A stretch of DNA of 64,000 nucleotides from a virus. The DNA lies in IMG/VR virus record IMGVR_UViG_3300045044_000056, positions 11,262 to 75,261 of that record. One strand, written 5' to 3'. Of the stretch, positions 2,910-27,830 are shown in pieces; the first letter of the stretch is position 1, and every line of letters begins with the position of its first letter. Under the pieces are notes generated by a model. It ran no database searches, had not been told where the DNA came from, and saw only the letters and a program-made list of their open reading frames with translations. The translations under genes were made by a program, and so were the position numbers.

Positions 2910-3198
2910 AGGCATAAAGGCCCGTGGACATTGATAGAACAGGAGTGGGCGATCCATGGGTGGGCTCCTTTAATTTTGAGCGAGCCGGTTGACTACTAGA
3001 ATAGCCACGATCAGCGCGACCATAACCGCCGCCTTCCATGCGCTGTCCCACGCCACCCGACGCGGCACACCCTGATAGCCGTAGGCAACGGCGTAGCGTT
3101 GCAGACCGGCAAGCGCGGCGATTGCTGCGATCCAGAACATTCAGGCCCTCTTTTATGCCGCGCGGCTACTTCTCCTTTGGGCTGAGCGTCCCCCCCCT

Positions 3199-3795
3199 TC
3201 ACGCCGCCAGCGCCCGCCGCACCGACGCAACACTCACCCCAAACCGCTCCGCTACCCCGCGCAACCCAACACCCCCAGCCCCATACGCCGCCCTGATCTC
3301 TAACGCCTTCGCCGCCCCAATCTCAACAGGCCGACCAATCGCCTTCCCAGATCGCGTCCCCTTCTCCCGCGCCCGCGCCATCCCCGCATTCACTCGCTCC
3401 CGGATGATCTCCCGCTCAAACTCCGCAAATACACCCAACATCTGAAACATCGCTCGCCCTGCCGGCGTCGTCGTGTCCAACCCCTGCTGGTGTAAATACA
3501 GCCCAGTCCTCGTCGCCCGTAAGTGCAACAAAAACGTCGTCAGATCCTGCAAACTCCGACCCAGCCGGTCCACCGACCACGCCATCACCAAATCAAACTT
3601 CCCCCGGCTCGCATCCTTGTGCAGCCGGTCAAACCCAGGCCGCCGCTCGCGACCCTTCGCCCCACTGATCCCAAGATCCTCATAAACCCCAACCACCTCG
3701 TGCCCCAGCCGCGCCGCAACCGCCCGCAGCTCCCGCTCCTGGTTCTCCGTCGTCTGATCCTTCGTGCTCACCCGCAAATACAGTACCGCGCGCAT
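3199..3795 (-). CDS. Serine recombinase (resolvase/invertase family) with C-terminal HTH
   Basis: YLRVST (catalytic Ser), ISGAKGRERRPGF, SVDRLGRS, FAEFEREIIRER. Confidence 0.95.
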   Translation of the reverse strand: MRAVLYLRVSTKDQTTENQERELRAVAARLGHEVVGVYEDLGISGAKGRERRPGFDRLHKDASRGKFDLVMAWSVDRLGRSLQDLTTFLLHLRATRTGLYLHQQGLDTTTPAGRAMFQMLGVFAEFEREIIRERVNAGMARAREKGTRSGKAIGRPVEIGAAKALEIRAAYGAGGVGLRGVAERFGVSVASVRRALAA

Positions 3796-3966
3796 ACCCT
3801 ACCTCCTCCAAATATGGGACCCATTGGCGTATTAGGGTACCGTTTCGCCAGAAGGTCCAACCATGGTTCCAGGAGGGCCCCGAGCGCGCGGCCGACTGGG
3901 GCCCCTGGAAACCTACCGTTTTGGGAATGAACATTGCTCCGCGCACCCTCCAATATGGGCGCGCGC

Positions 3967-4102
3967 TGTGCCAAATGGAAGTCCTTTTGTCACAGGTTAT
4001 TAGAGGCCGATAACTTGTTTATTTTCAAGGGGCTTATAACCGAATTTCAGGGAGGGTTTTGGCACACTTATAATATACCAGAATACCGATAACTAGTTAT
4101 CC
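3967..4102. promoter_or_regulatory. Candidate res site upstream of the resolvase
   Basis: AT-rich. Inverted TGTGCCAAA (3967-3975) and TTTGGCACA (4058-4066); TTATAA at 4034 and 4068; perfect palindrome GATAACTAGTTATC near 4088-4101. Confidence 0.45.
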
Positions 4103-4545
4103 TGACCATCCTCAGATACGACAGCATCTATGACTAATGCAGCTTCGCTATCTGGTAGGCGCGTACCTTTGAAGTCGAGGCGGAATATCTCGGCGCTCGG
4201 CGGCAGCCCGTGCTTGATCAGGTCCTGGTCCAGCTCGGCGACAGACGTGTAGTTGATCTCGGCCCGCGTGATATGCGCATCGATCGCCTTGGGCGTGATC
4301 ATGCCAAGCATGGTGACGCCGTTCCTGATGTCCTTGCGGATAGCGGCCAGCACGAAGCCGACCATTCCATTTTTGCCCTTGCCGTTTTCGCCATATGCGC
4401 AGAGGCCTTCGATGATGGCCTCGCGTGACATGCGGGTTGCGTAGTTTGGTTTGTCCTTGGGGCGACCTGGTCCGCCTTTGCCGCCTTTGACGAAGCCGTG
4501 GCGCTGTTTTCGATATTCTTTTCCGGCGAGCGCGCTGTTGGACAT
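4093..4545 (-). CDS. Probable terminase small subunit
   Basis: N-terminal HGFVKGGKGGPGRPKDKPN motif typical of phage TerS-like proteins; size and strand fit the late operon. Confidence 0.6.
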   Translation of the reverse strand: MSNSALAGKEYRKQRHGFVKGGKGGPGRPKDKPNYATRMSREAIIEGLCAYGENGKGKNGMVGFVLAAIRKDIRNGVTMLGMITPKAIDAHITRAEINYTSVAELDQDLIKHGLPPSAEIFRLDFKGTRLPDSEAALVIDAVVSEDGQDN

Positions 4546-5065: not shown

Positions 5066-5368
5066 ATGACCTGGAAGATGCGATTGCCCGAGGAGGAGAT
5101 CGGCGAGATCGTGGGGTGGCACGGTCAGTGGTGTTTACGAGATCGAGGGTTCAAGCCGGAGGGGCAGCCGTGGCGGCGACTGTATTTGCTTGCGCCGGAG
5201 GAGAAGCACTTGCCTAAAGAGAAGCGTAGCAAGCGGCGGAAGCTGGCCTATCATTTTGCGTGGAATGGCGAGCGGCTAAGTCGCAACAGTGATGCTGTGC
5301 AGCTTTTGAAGAATTATCCGGCGGTCCATGCCGCGGTGTTTGAGATGTGTAAGAAGGCATTTAACTGA
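5066..5368 (+). CDS. Hypothetical protein (100 aa)
   Basis: C-terminal part of track ORF 4850-5368 from MTWKMRLPEEE; the stop codon overlaps the first repeat of array 2. Confidence 0.6.
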   Translation: MTWKMRLPEEEIGEIVGWHGQWCLRDRGFKPEGQPWRRLYLLAPEEKHLPKEKRSKRRKLAYHFAWNGERLSRNSDAVQLLKNYPAVHAAVFEMCKKAFN

Positions 5369-5592
5369 GCCAGGAGCGCCGAGAGCACCAGAAGGTCATG
5401 AGCGAGCCACCCCAGTTGAGAGCACCAGGCAATGGGAGCGAGCCACGCCCTACGAGAGCACCAAAGTATATGAGCGAGCCACGCCGGATGAGAGCACCAT
5501 GCTTAAGGAGCGAGCCAGAAACCGGGAGAGCACCAAGCCTTAGGAGCGAGCCACGTCAGTTGAGAGCACCATAAATCGGGAGCGGAGCGAGC
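5363..5592 (+). ncRNA. TIGR-like dual-repeat guide array 2 (about 6 units)
   Basis: Same two repeats: GAGAGCACCA at 5381, 5418, 5454, 5490, 5526, 5562; GAGCGAGCCA at 5400, 5436, 5472, 5508, 5544. Confidence 0.88.
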
Positions 5593-5651
5593 TTAGGCCC
5601 TCTTGCAATTCTCAAGTAATTATTGATAGGCTATTCAAGTAAGCCTTTAAT

Positions 5652-6668
5652 TTGCACGGCTGGGGACTTGGCGTCGCGGTTTTGCGCATGGCCAGGGCAA
5701 GGCGCCAACTGGTTAGCATTGCTGACCCGATTGCATTGGGCCGTGGGTTTGCGGCTGCCGGCGGGCGCTTGGCCACGGAAGGTTTTGAGATCGCCGCACG
5801 GCTGCATGCGGATCTGCGCGAGCAATGGACGACGAAGCCAGTTGGGTTGGGGGTTGCAGAGGCCTTGGCTGGCATGGTTCGGCCGAAGCCGATCCGGGAG
5901 AACTTGGTTAGCTTAGCGATCGAGGCCGAGCGTGTGGGCCGGCTGGCGGTTGCCGGGCTGATGCTGGCGGAGCTGCGGATCTCGTTTGGGCGGGATGCCG
6001 ACTGGAGAGCGTTTGCAGGCCAGCATCTTCCATTTGGGTTGGAGCGTGCTGAGCATCTGATTGGCGCGGTGGTGCACCGCAATTCGATGGCGTACTGTGC
6101 CAAGTGCAAGGCCGGCGTCCGCTGTGAGTGCTCCTGTGGCGTGCCCTATATCCCCGAGGTGCCGTGGGAGCGTGAGCCTGCAGCTCTGCCGGAGCCGGTG
6201 CATTCAAGTTCGGCTTTAGAGCGGGCGCTGGCGGCGATTAAAGCTGAGCCCGGCAAGTCTAACCGGCTGATCGCGAAGGAAATTGGGGTAGCTGACGATA
6301 CCGTTAGGCGTGCTCGCAAAAAATATGAGGCCGATCGCGCACCTGATCGCGCACCTGTACGCGTTGGTGCTGACGGCAAGTCCTATCATCTACCCACGCA
6401 CAGCCAAAGGCACCGAAAGGCACCGCCGCCTGATGATGGCAGCCTAGCGAATGAATTGGTGATTGCGCCGCTGGTGAAGTTCGCGACCGCCTACGTCAAC
6501 ACCATCAATGAATTTGATGACCGCAAGCTGCGCACCGACTTCACGCGCGAGGATCGGGATGCGATCGCGGATACATTTTACTCGATCATGAATGACCTGG
6601 GTTTGCTCGCCCAGCGTTTCAACGACGTCACCCTTGAGCAACATCAGAATGGAGGAATACACCAATGA
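5652..6668 (+). CDS. DNA-binding protein (DUF3102-like segment, Cys cluster, HTH); start uncertain, may be 6087
   Basis: AGLMLAELR...DWRAFAGQHLPFGLERAEHLI; CAKC...CECSC; SNRLIAKEIGVADDTVRRARK HTH; GADGKSY. Confidence 0.6.
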   Translation: MHGWGLGVAVLRMARARRQLVSIADPIALGRGFAAAGGRLATEGFEIAARLHADLREQWTTKPVGLGVAEALAGMVRPKPIRENLVSLAIEAERVGRLAVAGLMLAELRISFGRDADWRAFAGQHLPFGLERAEHLIGAVVHRNSMAYCAKCKAGVRCECSCGVPYIPEVPWEREPAALPEPVHSSSALERALAAIKAEPGKSNRLIAKEIGVADDTVRRARKKYEADRAPDRAPVRVGADGKSYHLPTHSQRHRKAPPPDDGSLANELVIAPLVKFATAYVNTINEFDDRKLRTDFTREDRDAIADTFYSIMNDLGLLAQRFNDVTLEQHQNGGIHQ

Positions 6669-25601: not shown

Positions 25602-26204
25602 TCATCCATGTCGATTAGCGAGACGCAAGAATGCATCTTCGTCAGCTTCCAGCATCAGCTTCTGCGCCAGCATGTGATCGGCGATCGGAATGCCGCCGTC
25701 GTCAAGATGACCACAAAGCCGATGCAAGACGCGATCCTGGCCAAGCAAGTCGCGTTCCACAACGTCGATGTTTGCCACTGCGTGCCCTTGGTCGCGTATG
25801 CGATAGAGGCGGCCGGATCGTCCCTCGACCAGGAACCATTTATGCCGCTCGATCGACGCGCGCTGCTCTGGTGTCAGCGAGCGCAGCAATAGCTCGCGCG
25901 CCTTCAGTTCCGCATCAGTGCGCTGCAGGTCGCGTTGAAGCGCGGCTGGCCGCACATGCGGGCGATGAATGCGCGGTTGCACGGGTACTGTCCATAGCTG
26001 GTTGTGCTGCGGGTAGATGTAGAGCGTGCTGCCCGTACCTTGTTGCACAAAGCACGGGATGGTCGCGGTGCTGGTTGCCGTACCGTTGCTCCACAGATAG
26101 GTGGTCGGCACCGTGGACGAGCCGCCGGTTGAGTCGGTCGTCCACATCTGATTGGCCGAGTCGTAGTTGACCCAGCCGGTGTTGTTGATCCAGACGAGCG
26201 GCAC
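25602..26204 (-). CDS. Conserved phage protein with a single conserved-looking Cys; possible E2-like partner of the adjacent Ubl
   Basis: AELKARELLLRSL...WFLVEGRSGRLYRI...ANI...LCGH...IPIADHMLAQKLMLEADEDAFLRLAN; low-complexity Thr/Ser N-terminus. Confidence 0.6.
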   Translation of the reverse strand: MPLVWINNTGWVNYDSANQMWTTDSTGGSSTVPTTYLWSNGTATSTATIPCFVQQGTGSTLYIYPQHNQLWTVPVQPRIHRPHVRPAALQRDLQRTDAELKARELLLRSLTPEQRASIERHKWFLVEGRSGRLYRIRDQGHAVANIDVVERDLLGQDRVLHRLCGHLDDGGIPIADHMLAQKLMLEADEDAFLRLANRHG

Positions 26205-26205
26205 G

Positions 26206-26433
26206 TCAGCCGCCCCTGAGCTGCGGCACCAGCATCATCTCGCGGGCGTGCGGGTCGAACACTTCCATTCGCGTTGCTTTCTCGCCATCGCGGACGCGAA
26301 ACGCGTGGAAACCCGCGTCGGTCTTTTCCTCGAAAACCTCGCGCGCGAAAGCAACCTCGTCGGCGTTGTTCGGGTCCCAGCCGATCTTGGTGTGCCCGCT
26401 ACGGTCGAGAATATTCATTTCATGTAGTCCCAT
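26206..26433 (-). CDS. Ubiquitin-like (beta-grasp) protein, 75 aa, ending LVPQLRGG
   Basis: Start at 26433 after GGGAGA; apparent beta-beta-alpha-beta-beta-beta pattern; di-Gly C-terminus. Confidence 0.6.
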   Translation of the reverse strand: MGLHEMNILDRSGHTKIGWDPNNADEVAFAREVFEEKTDAGFHAFRVRDGEKATRMEVFDPHAREMMLVPQLRGG

Positions 26434-26453
26434 TGTCTTCTCCCTTGTTAAAT

Positions 26454-27774: not shown

Positions 27775-27805
27775 AATGCGCAACAAAAAAAGCCCCGTTC
27801 CCGAA
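27775..27805 (-). terminator. Intrinsic terminator separating late genes from the TasA operon
   Basis: GCCCCGTTCC-CGAA-GGAACGGGGC with an A7 tract on the + strand left side. Confidence 0.8.
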
Positions 27806-27830
27806 GGAACGGGGCGAGGACGGAGGGGCC

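What the first reader, a model, noticed from the sequence alone, without database searches (positions are those of the whole stretch)
25602..26433. Ubiquitin-like protein ending LRGG coupled to a Cys-containing possible E2-like partner, upstream of tasA
Seen: a 75-aa protein ending MMLVPQLRGG (ubiquitin is 76 aa and ends LVLRLRGG), with an apparent beta-beta-alpha-beta-beta-beta layout. One base after its stop begins a gene with ...HAVANI...LCGHL...IPIADHMLAQKLML...AN, loosely like the UBC HPN...C...P...LL pattern, though the Asn-Cys spacing is longer than canonical. No E1/ThiF or JAB gene is visible in the window. Established: bacterial Ubl conjugation systems act in antiphage defence. Inference: a minimal phage conjugation module or a decoy of host Ubl defence, in the same operon as TasA.
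Basis: inference. Interest (0 to 1): 0.68.

Follow-up and report, generated by a model that had tools for sequence, protein, structure and literature searches.

The report
Phage ubiquitin-like protein with mini-E2 partner
A soil phage carries an undescribed, widespread two-gene unit, a small ubiquitin-shaped protein ending in Gly-Gly plus a cysteine-bearing partner shaped like a stripped-down ubiquitin-conjugating enzyme, but no activating enzyme, so it probably borrows one from the host to tag proteins.

Summary
Observation confirmed. The 75-aa protein (26433-26206) folds as a beta-grasp, and Gly-Gly is conserved across a large family (1,250 clusters; 129 of the top 150 end GG). The partner (26204-25602) has a Thr/Ser-rich N-terminus and a ~110-aa domain with an invariant Cys164 (1,138 homologues). 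Its best fold matches are RWD/UBC domains, but weak (Z at most 5.0). It has no HPN motif and no sequence link to any E2 family. The Ubl lies just upstream of the partner in 123 of 124 informative loci (phages, Burkholderiales genomes; also Bradyrhizobium plasmids and a prophage). Co-folding supports a complex (0.85 against best control 0.00), with the Ubl sheet on the helix after the Cys, as in closed E2~Ub. No E1 was found next to any pair, and no third gene is conserved; this phage has neither E1 nor JAB. The TasA link is local (5 of 32 phages have Tas). Best reading: a minimal Ubl/E2-like conjugation module charged by an E1 in trans; chemistry and target are untested. I found no paper describing it. 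The scan noted what looks like the same or a similar pair on other DNA (e1-5365412, e1-5499830, e1-5469646).

The parts
26440..26446 (-). Shine-Dalgarno-like AAGGGAG, 6 nt before the Ubl ATG
   Evidence: sequence
26206..26433 (-). 75-aa beta-grasp ubiquitin-like protein ending QLRGG (alternative start Met6)
   Evidence: AF2 pLDDT 92, five strands and one helix; nearly all fold hits beta-grasp; G13 and G75 invariant, G74 97%; 1,250 clusters at 50% identity
25602..26204 (-). 200-aa partner gene, GTG start one base after the Ubl stop (probable translational coupling)
   Evidence: a 1-nt gap or 4-nt overlap is the commonest junction in relatives
25965..26204 (-). Variable low-complexity N-terminal region of the partner: Thr/Ser about 30%, Trp/Tyr-rich, almost no Lys, often starting Met-Pro; candidate target-binding or acceptor region (inferred)
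25602..25958 (-). Conserved ~110-aa mini-E2/RWD-like domain: long helix, four-strand meander, then a long crossover-type helix
   Evidence: AF2 pLDDT 93; top VIA rows are RWD domains at Z 5.0-4.3, with UBE2S and BubB lower; 1,138 homologues
25713..25715 (-). Codon of the invariant Cys164 (followed by His166 in most phage copies and invariant Pro173)
27792..27815 (-). Strong terminator-like hairpin between the late/lysis genes and the small-gene cluster that holds the pair (context)
   Evidence: consensus match only
23607..24464 (-). TIGR-Tas protein (TasA), same strand, four small genes downstream; a local neighbour, not a conserved part of the module
   Evidence: NF052498 at 184.8 bits, cut-off 100; linkage not conserved

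Best explanation
A two-gene minimal ubiquitin-like conjugation module. Supported by computation: the Ubl is a beta-grasp with a free Gly-Gly tail, and it binds its own partner with the sheet face (L9, F45, M67, V69, L72; roughly ubiquitin's I44 patch) on the helix that follows Cys164, while the tail runs along residues 164-173. Inferred: an E1 supplied in trans adenylates the GG carboxylate. The most likely source is the host's MoeB/ThiF-type enzyme, because the tail reads hydrophobic strand-P-x-hydrophobic-x-GG like MoaD's (from my own knowledge); a defence E1 or, in some jumbo phages, an unlinked phage E1 could also serve. Cys164 then takes the Ubl as a thioester and the partner passes it to a target amine or hydroxyl, with the variable Thr/Ser-rich N-terminus choosing the target (no E3, as in Bil). 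In phages it sits among small non-structural genes and is probably used in host take-over or counter-defence. The target is unknown.
For: Fold of the Ubl. GG or AG tail in 96 of 100 distinct locus copies and GG in 129 of 150 database hits. Cys invariant, lying 7-9 residues before an invariant Pro that opens the long helix (UbcH5 Cys85 to Pro95 is 10, from memory). RWD/UBC-fold domains take the top four rows and about half of the top 20 in an exhaustive structure search; BubB, a diverged E2 with nucleophile-x-His and no C-terminal helix pair (PMC11601596), is also listed, at Z 2.9. Ubl upstream in 123 of 124 informative loci and 22 of 22 phage records hold both genes. Co-fold score 0.85 against best control 0.00; that mark was reached by 58 of 80 solved complexes and 2 of 110 mismatched pairs; runs agree in at least 96% of contacts, partner pLDDT at least 90. 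The crossover helix is the Ub contact in closed E2~Ub (PMC5462532). All 13 cellular genomes with the pair hold ThiF-family genes elsewhere.
Against: Structural Z-scores for the partner (at most 5.0, rmsd 3-4 A) are below the level the tool calls trustworthy, and Foldseek finds no E2. The best matches are non-catalytic RWD domains; 4y1l_C is the RWD chain, not Ubc9 (length 109; PMC4927773). No HPN; no Pfam, NCBIfam or PADLOC family; HHalign to small Prok-E2_E and Prok-E2_B alignments under 1%. No E1 within about 6 kb of any pair, and 11 of 12 near-complete phages have none at all. The co-fold lists Cys164 and G74-G75 in the interface but not as one of its 25 best pairs, so their contact is not shown; the pass may echo solved E2~Ub structures. 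No experiment exists.
Confidence: 0.47

Rival explanations
1. Counter-defence decoy or sink. The Ubl is accepted by host defence E1s (BilD, BubCD, Cap2) and unloaded onto the partner's Cys, or the partner drains the host Ubl, so that Ubl-based defence is exhausted and no downstream target is modified.
For: Mostly on phages, in small-gene clusters away from structural genes. No E1, JAB or third gene of its own. Bil, Bub and CBASS use E1/E2 chemistry against phage (PMC10557695, PMC11601596).
Against: Cellular copies sit in housekeeping contexts, such as beside a HemC-like gene in Burkholderiales genomes (recognised by eye), and two copies lie on one Bradyrhizobium plasmid. A decoy would not obviously need a private Ubl-partner interface or variable N-terminal extensions. 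No sequence likeness to any PADLOC model.
Confidence: 0.17
2. Sulfur-carrier or small-molecule module. The Ubl is thiocarboxylated by host MoeB/ThiF plus IscS like MoaD or ThiS, and the partner acts as a MoaE/CysM-like acceptor or forms an acyl-persulfide at Cys164.
For: MoaD-like tail; nearest named Atlas cluster is ThiS, at a weak 0.76; MoaD, TtuB and SAMP1 appear among fold hits at Z 3.6-4.7.
Against: No sulfur-, cofactor- or tRNA-modification gene recurs beside the pair in 81 sequence groups. The partner's best matches are RWD/UBC domains. The ThiS Pfam model does not appear among the families matched by two or more of 149 members.
Confidence: 0.11
3. The partner is a hydrolase (isopeptidase or thioesterase) with a Cys-x-His-Asn site that strips Ubl-type tags, and the small protein is its substrate, product mimic or inhibitor.
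For: Cys164, His166 and Asn145 are 100%, 97% and 100% conserved in the phage-rich alignment, and a tail lying in a groove is also how DUBs bind Ubls.
Against: His at Cys+2 is in 25 of 30 viral copies but 0 of 23 cellular copies. No protease fold among the hits. Most Ubls already end in GG and need no processing.
Confidence: 0.09
4. Non-covalent heterodimer (adaptor, inhibitor or toxin-antitoxin-like pair). An RWD-like domain binds a beta-grasp partner, and GG and Cys are kept for packing or redox reasons.
For: The best structural matches are non-catalytic RWD domains; the predicted interface is large (93-94 contacts); no activating enzyme is linked.
Against: Invariance of both a terminal Gly and a Cys that lie on the same interface over thousands of sequences is hard to explain without chemistry.
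Confidence: 0.1
5. E1-independent ligation. The pair forms and transfers an acyl-Cys intermediate with no E1 at all, through an unknown activation or by transpeptidation from extended Ubl forms.
For: Strict two-gene architecture; some Ubls carry residues after GG, and two assemblies show an in-frame Ubl-GG-partner fusion.
Against: Most Ubls end in a free carboxylate, which cannot acylate a thiol without ATP-type activation (established chemistry), and the domain shows no nucleotide-binding motif.
Confidence: 0.06

Closest known systems
Bub (6E) operons, BubA/BubB (PMC11601596)
   Same: Beta-grasp Ubl next to, or fused with, a diverged E2 that lacks the C-terminal helix pair and has nucleophile-x-His (Ser333-x-His335); BubA (Z 4.2) and BubB (Z 2.9) both appear among fold hits.
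   Different: Bub has its own E1, JAB and BubE, uses Ser oxyesters, and is a host operon. Here the nucleophile is Cys, there are only two genes, and profile similarity to Prok-E2_E is under 1%.
Bil (BilABCD) antiphage system (PMC10557695; bioRxiv 10.1101/2023.09.04.556158)
   Same: Ubl plus a Cys E2 with a nearby His, and no E3.
   Different: Bil encodes a multidomain E1 and a JAB peptidase and is a host defence system. No PADLOC or NCBIfam match here.
Canonical E2 (UBC, Pfam UQ_con) with ubiquitin; RWD/UEV domains
   Same: Helix, four-strand meander, crossover-type helix; Cys shortly before a Pro that opens the helix; Ubl sheet face predicted on that helix.
   Different: About 110 aa; no HPN, apparently no catalytic flap, no C-terminal helix pair; only Z 5.0 or less; no sequence similarity. 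RWD domains have no catalytic Cys.
MoaD/ThiS sulfur carriers with MoeB/ThiF
   Same: Small beta-grasp with a P-x-hydrophobic-x-GG tail.
   Different: No Pfam ThiS match; paired with a Cys RWD-like protein and not with MoaE, ThiG or an E1.
Phage tail assembly Ubl TAPI (lambda gpI) with JAB-NlpC gpK (PMC1779556)
   Same: A phage-encoded beta-grasp with a conserved C-terminal Gly.
   Different: TAPI lies in the tail operon beside a JAB peptidase and has an extra C-terminal domain. This pair lies among non-structural genes with no JAB.

Membership tests
Beta-grasp / ubiquitin-like fold | Beta-beta-alpha-beta-(beta)-beta grasp topology | tested here: met
   AF2 pLDDT 92; top-50 lists of three searches are almost all beta-grasp domains, best Z 5.8, rmsd 3.2 A over 58 residues; individual scores are only moderate
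Ubl modifier / carrier | Conserved exposed C-terminal Gly-Gly | tested here: met
   129 of 150 end GG, G75 invariant; 80 GG and 16 AG of 100 locus copies
Ubl modifier / carrier | C-terminus adenylated by an E1 and covalently transferred | not testable with these tools
   needs biochemistry
ThiS/MoaD (PF02597) | Match to the family HMM | tested here: not met
   no match for the query; not among families hit by two or more of 149 members at E<=1
E2 / UBC superfamily | UBC/RWD fold (helix, four-strand meander, crossover helix) | tested here: inconclusive
   top four rows are RWD domains, Z 5.0 (rmsd 3.2 A, 85 aligned) to 4.3; UBE2S Z 3.4; below the tool's trust level; Foldseek gave no significant hit
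E2 / UBC superfamily | Invariant Cys placed just before the crossover helix | tested here: inconclusive
   Cys invariant and 7-9 residues before the Pro that opens the helix; residue-level superposition on an E2 Cys was not available
Canonical E2 (UQ_con) | HPN motif eight residues before the Cys | tested here: not met
   no HPN; invariant Asn 11-26 residues upstream, at the start of a strand
UQ_con / Prok-E2_A-E | Match to a Pfam E2 family or profile-profile similarity | tested here: not met
   no E2 family among those listed for 136 members; HHalign probability under 1% to Prok-E2_E (8 sequences) and Prok-E2_B (4 sequences), shallow templates
Bil / Bub / type II CBASS | E1 encoded in the same operon | tested here: not met
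Bil / Bub / type II CBASS | JAB peptidase in the operon | tested here: not met
Bil / Bub / type II CBASS | Antiphage (or counter-defence) phenotype | not testable with these tools
   needs plating assays
Phage TAPI Ubl | Tail-assembly neighbourhood with JAB/NlpC gpK and gpJ | tested here: not met
   neighbours are small non-structural genes; no JAB
TIGR-Tas system component | Conserved linkage to Tas | tested here: not met
   Tas in 5 of 32 phage records; near the pair in three independent lineages only

The most novel reading that the evidence does not exclude
A widespread family of phage and bacterial two-gene tagging modules that have dropped E1, E3 and DUB altogether. They parasitise the host's ordinary sulfur-carrier activating enzyme (MoeB/ThiF) to charge a private ubiquitin-like tag, load it on the smallest catalytic UBC/RWD-fold enzyme yet seen, and pick targets with a swappable low-complexity N-terminus. 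This would be a phage-directed ubiquitination-like modification of host proteins and a possible link between RWD domains and E2 enzymes.
Probability: 0.3. Interest if true: 0.88.

Novelty: new variant of a known kind. Interest (0 to 1): 0.68.

Why it matters
Described bacterial Ubl conjugation systems (Bil, Bub, CBASS Cap2) are host defences that carry their own E1. This family puts a Ubl and an E2-like enzyme on the phage side, in over a thousand sequence clusters, with no E1. If it conjugates, it shows that phages run ubiquitin-like tagging by borrowing a host enzyme, and it defines a minimal catalytic E2 core. If it is a decoy, it would be a broad counter-defence against Ubl-based immunity. 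Both proteins are small, the key mutants are obvious (delta-GG, C164A), and cultured Bradyrhizobium strains carry natural copies, so the question is directly testable.

Tried and rejected
Pfam, PHROGs, NCBIfam, PADLOC and PDB sequence searches gave no family for either protein. Foldseek against PDB and the VIA second look gave no clear match for the partner; MoaE and protease folds were not listed, which does not exclude them. Reading the top VIA hit 4y1l_C as Ubc9 was rejected: it is the RWD chain. The HPN analogy was rejected in its literal form, although one divergent copy has an HN-x8-C spacing. E1 and JAB were sought in the own genome, 31 related phage records, 13 cellular genomes, one plasmid and 4 GenBank phages: ThiF occurs in 4 phage records, 29-190 kb from the Ubl-partner pair, in two cases in a separate JAB-Ubl-E1 cassette with a different Ubl ending PFG. 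A conserved third gene was sought in 81 sequence groups and not found. The link to TasA was tested and rejected as general. Candidate copies in the cultured phages RsoM2USA and Atu_ph07 did not hold up; the structural hit to an Atu_ph07 protein (TM 0.65) is unexplained. Ten literature searches found no description of the pair; the library lacks most subscription papers. The Ubl and partner distances correlate across 103 loci (Spearman 0.62), but shared descent explains this, so it was not used as evidence. Binding of the Ubl to a host E1 could not be modelled (one complex job per session).

Full report
Setting. The window lies in an 85,183-bp virus record, 92% complete, with an integrase, a primase/helicase, a tail sheath and an endolysin: a probably temperate contractile-tailed phage. 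The two genes lie on the minus strand in a cluster of small genes that starts after a strong terminator-like hairpin at 27815-27792 and runs to a TIGR-Tas gene at 24464-23607 (NF052498, 184.8 bits). Gaps in the cluster are small, so co-transcription with tasA is plausible but not shown.

Observation. The 75-aa ORF at 26433-26206 ends QLRGG and has a Shine-Dalgarno sequence; the 200-aa ORF at 26204-25602 starts one base after its stop. Neither matches Pfam, PHROGs, NCBIfam, PADLOC or a PDB sequence.

The small protein. A profile search found 1,250 clusters at 50% identity. Of the best 150, 129 end in GG and 5 in AG, and most others have GG followed by a short extension. G13 and G75 are invariant. 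Only 4 of 330 ORFs in this genome end in GG. AlphaFold2 gives strands 4-10, 13-19, 43-47, 54-56 and 65-69 and helix 24-39 at pLDDT 92. Three structure searches return almost only beta-grasp domains: ubiquitin, RA/RBD, PB1, UBX, protein L, MoaD, TtuB, SAMP1, UFM1, BubA and a bacterial Ubl-DUB complex. Single scores are moderate (Foldseek E 0.005 at best; Z up to 5.8), but the lists agree. It is a compact beta-grasp with a modifier-type tail and belongs to no named family.

The partner. Residues 1 to about 80 are variable and low in complexity: across 136 homologues this region is 20% Thr, 10% Ser, 11% Trp plus Tyr and 0.2% Lys, and 60 begin Met-Pro. The C-terminal ~110 residues are conserved in 1,138 proteins, with invariant Asn145, Cys164, Pro173 and Gln181 (alignment numbers plus 82). 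The model (pLDDT 93) has a long helix, a short helix, four strands and a long helix from 174 to 195. Foldseek finds nothing in PDB. The exhaustive VIA search puts RWD domains in the top four rows (Z 5.0, rmsd 3.2 A, 85 aligned; then 4.9, 4.5, 4.3), followed by VPS37A, FANCL, UBE2S (3.4), kinetochore RWDs and BubB (2.9). These scores are under the tool's trust level; what counts is the enrichment of one superfamily. The top chain is the RWD domain of RWDD3, not Ubc9 (PMC4927773). There is no HPN, the Asn-Cys spacing is 11-26, and HHalign to Prok-E2_E and Prok-E2_B gives under 1%. What does match an E2 is the place of the Cys: 7-9 residues before a Pro that opens the long helix, against 10 in UbcH5 (from memory). 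BubB is a precedent for a diverged E2 with nucleophile-x-His and no C-terminal helix pair (PMC11601596). His166 is kept in 25 of 30 viral copies but in none of 23 cellular copies, so it is not essential to the family. I conclude that it probably works like an E2 but is not a member of any defined E2 family.

The pair. In 139 loci from viral, genome and metagenome collections (partly redundant), 124 had enough upstream DNA, and 123 of them had the Ubl on the same strand within 1.5 kb upstream of the Cys domain. The exception has its Ubl elsewhere in the genome. The commonest junctions are a 1-nt gap or a 4-nt overlap; one prophage has a gene inserted between the two. The pair occurs in phages of 50-595 kb, in 11 of 301 sampled genomes of the order that holds the Burkholderiales MAG hits, on Bradyrhizobium plasmids and in a Bradyrhizobium prophage. 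No third gene recurs in more than a handful of 81 sequence groups. Co-folding scored 0.85 against a best control of 0.00; the mark was reached by 58 of 80 solved complexes and 2 of 110 mismatched pairs; the runs share at least 96% of contacts and the partner pLDDT is at least 90. The model supports binding; it does not show it, and it may echo solved E2~Ub structures. The best-defined contacts join Ubl L9, G13, F45, M67 and L72 to partner I172-E186 and the first helix. By C-terminal register F45, M67, V69 and L72 correspond to ubiquitin I44, H68, V70 and L73 (my mapping), the face that packs on the crossover helix in closed E2~Ub (PMC5462532). Cys164 and G74-G75 are both in the interface list, but their direct contact is not reported.

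The missing E1. This genome has no ThiF or Prok-JAB match. ThiF was found in 2 of 31 related records (1 of 12 near-complete) and in two GenBank phages, always 29 kb or more from the Ubl-partner pair. In two cases it belongs to a separate JAB-Ubl-E1 cassette whose Ubl ends PFG; in one of these a stand-alone copy of the Cys domain lies 1 kb from the E1. No E1 lies within the fetched flanks (up to 6 kb) of any pair, with a profile that did recover divergent E1 controls. All 13 cellular genomes have ThiF-family genes, none on the contig of the pair. A free Gly-Gly carboxylate needs ATP-dependent activation, so if the pair is covalent the E1 acts in trans. The MoaD-like tail points to housekeeping MoeB as a candidate (inference).

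TasA. Tas genes occur in 5 of 32 phage records with the partner gene and near the pair in three independent lineages. The adjacency is a local feature of a variable gene cluster.

Mechanism and odds. Conjugation through a Cys164 thioester with a borrowed E1, 0.47; decoy or sink for defence E1s, 0.17; sulfur carrier, 0.11; non-covalent complex, 0.10; hydrolase, 0.09; E1-independent ligation, 0.06. Folds, conservation, linkage and absence of E1 are computed results; activation, thioester, transfer and target are all inferred.

Novelty. No family model and no paper in the searchable library describes the pair. The only phage Ubl class I found in the 2006 survey is TAPI (PMC1779556). Earlier notes of this scan describe a GG protein with a Cys partner in a huge phage and mini-E2 pairs in Asgard archaea; I could not compare their sequences, and look-ups by sequence found no match. 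I rate it a new variant of a known kind, interest 0.68.

Noticed in passing
L053:216-2094 and 3081-3533 (G022, 436-kb phage); L052:1423-2610 (G025): Separate JAB - Ubl (ending KTPFG) - unknown - ThiF cassette in large phages. In G022 a stand-alone copy of the Cys domain lies 1 kb from the E1, and three more copies lie beside the Ubl pair; their N-termini differ.
   Followed up: partly
L015 and L019, about 5230-6306: In two assemblies of a jumbo phage the Ubl reads in frame through GG-L-M into the partner, giving a Ubl-partner fusion like BubAB. It could be real or a one-base slip at the junction.
   Followed up: partly
L058:1129-2381 and 3563-4300 (Virus Rctr197k): Divergent version: Ubl with a partial duplication ending PG, two Cys-domain genes, and a CRISPR array about 3 kb further on.
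   Followed up: partly
L160:9715-9999 (Bradyrhizobium sp. S3.7.6 prophage): An unrelated 94-aa gene, itself ending IGG, is inserted between the Ubl and the partner.
   Followed up: partly
window 26204-25965: The partner's N-terminal region is nearly lysine-free and starts Met-Pro in 60 of 136 homologues; cellular copies mostly lack the Thr-rich region and the His after the Cys.
   Followed up: partly
window 25038-24451 (-): CxxCxxCC-family gene (PF03692) between the pair and tasA; it recurs near the pair in five related phage groups.
   Followed up: partly
window 21811-22965 (+): 384-aa Gly/Asp/Thr-rich ORF with no Pfam or PHROGs match, on the opposite strand and followed by a strong hairpin; looks like lysogenic cargo.
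   Followed up: no
window 23200-23600: Repeat array directly after tasA (TIGR guide array, covered by another finding).
   Followed up: no
BFVD A0A2L0UZL2 (Agrobacterium phage Atu_ph07): A 397-aa protein of a cultured jumbo phage matches the partner model structurally (TM 0.65) but not by sequence profile; it may be a more distant branch.
   Followed up: partly
window 39617-37776 (-): 613-aa protein with an N-terminal methyltransferase domain among the tail/baseplate genes.
   Followed up: no
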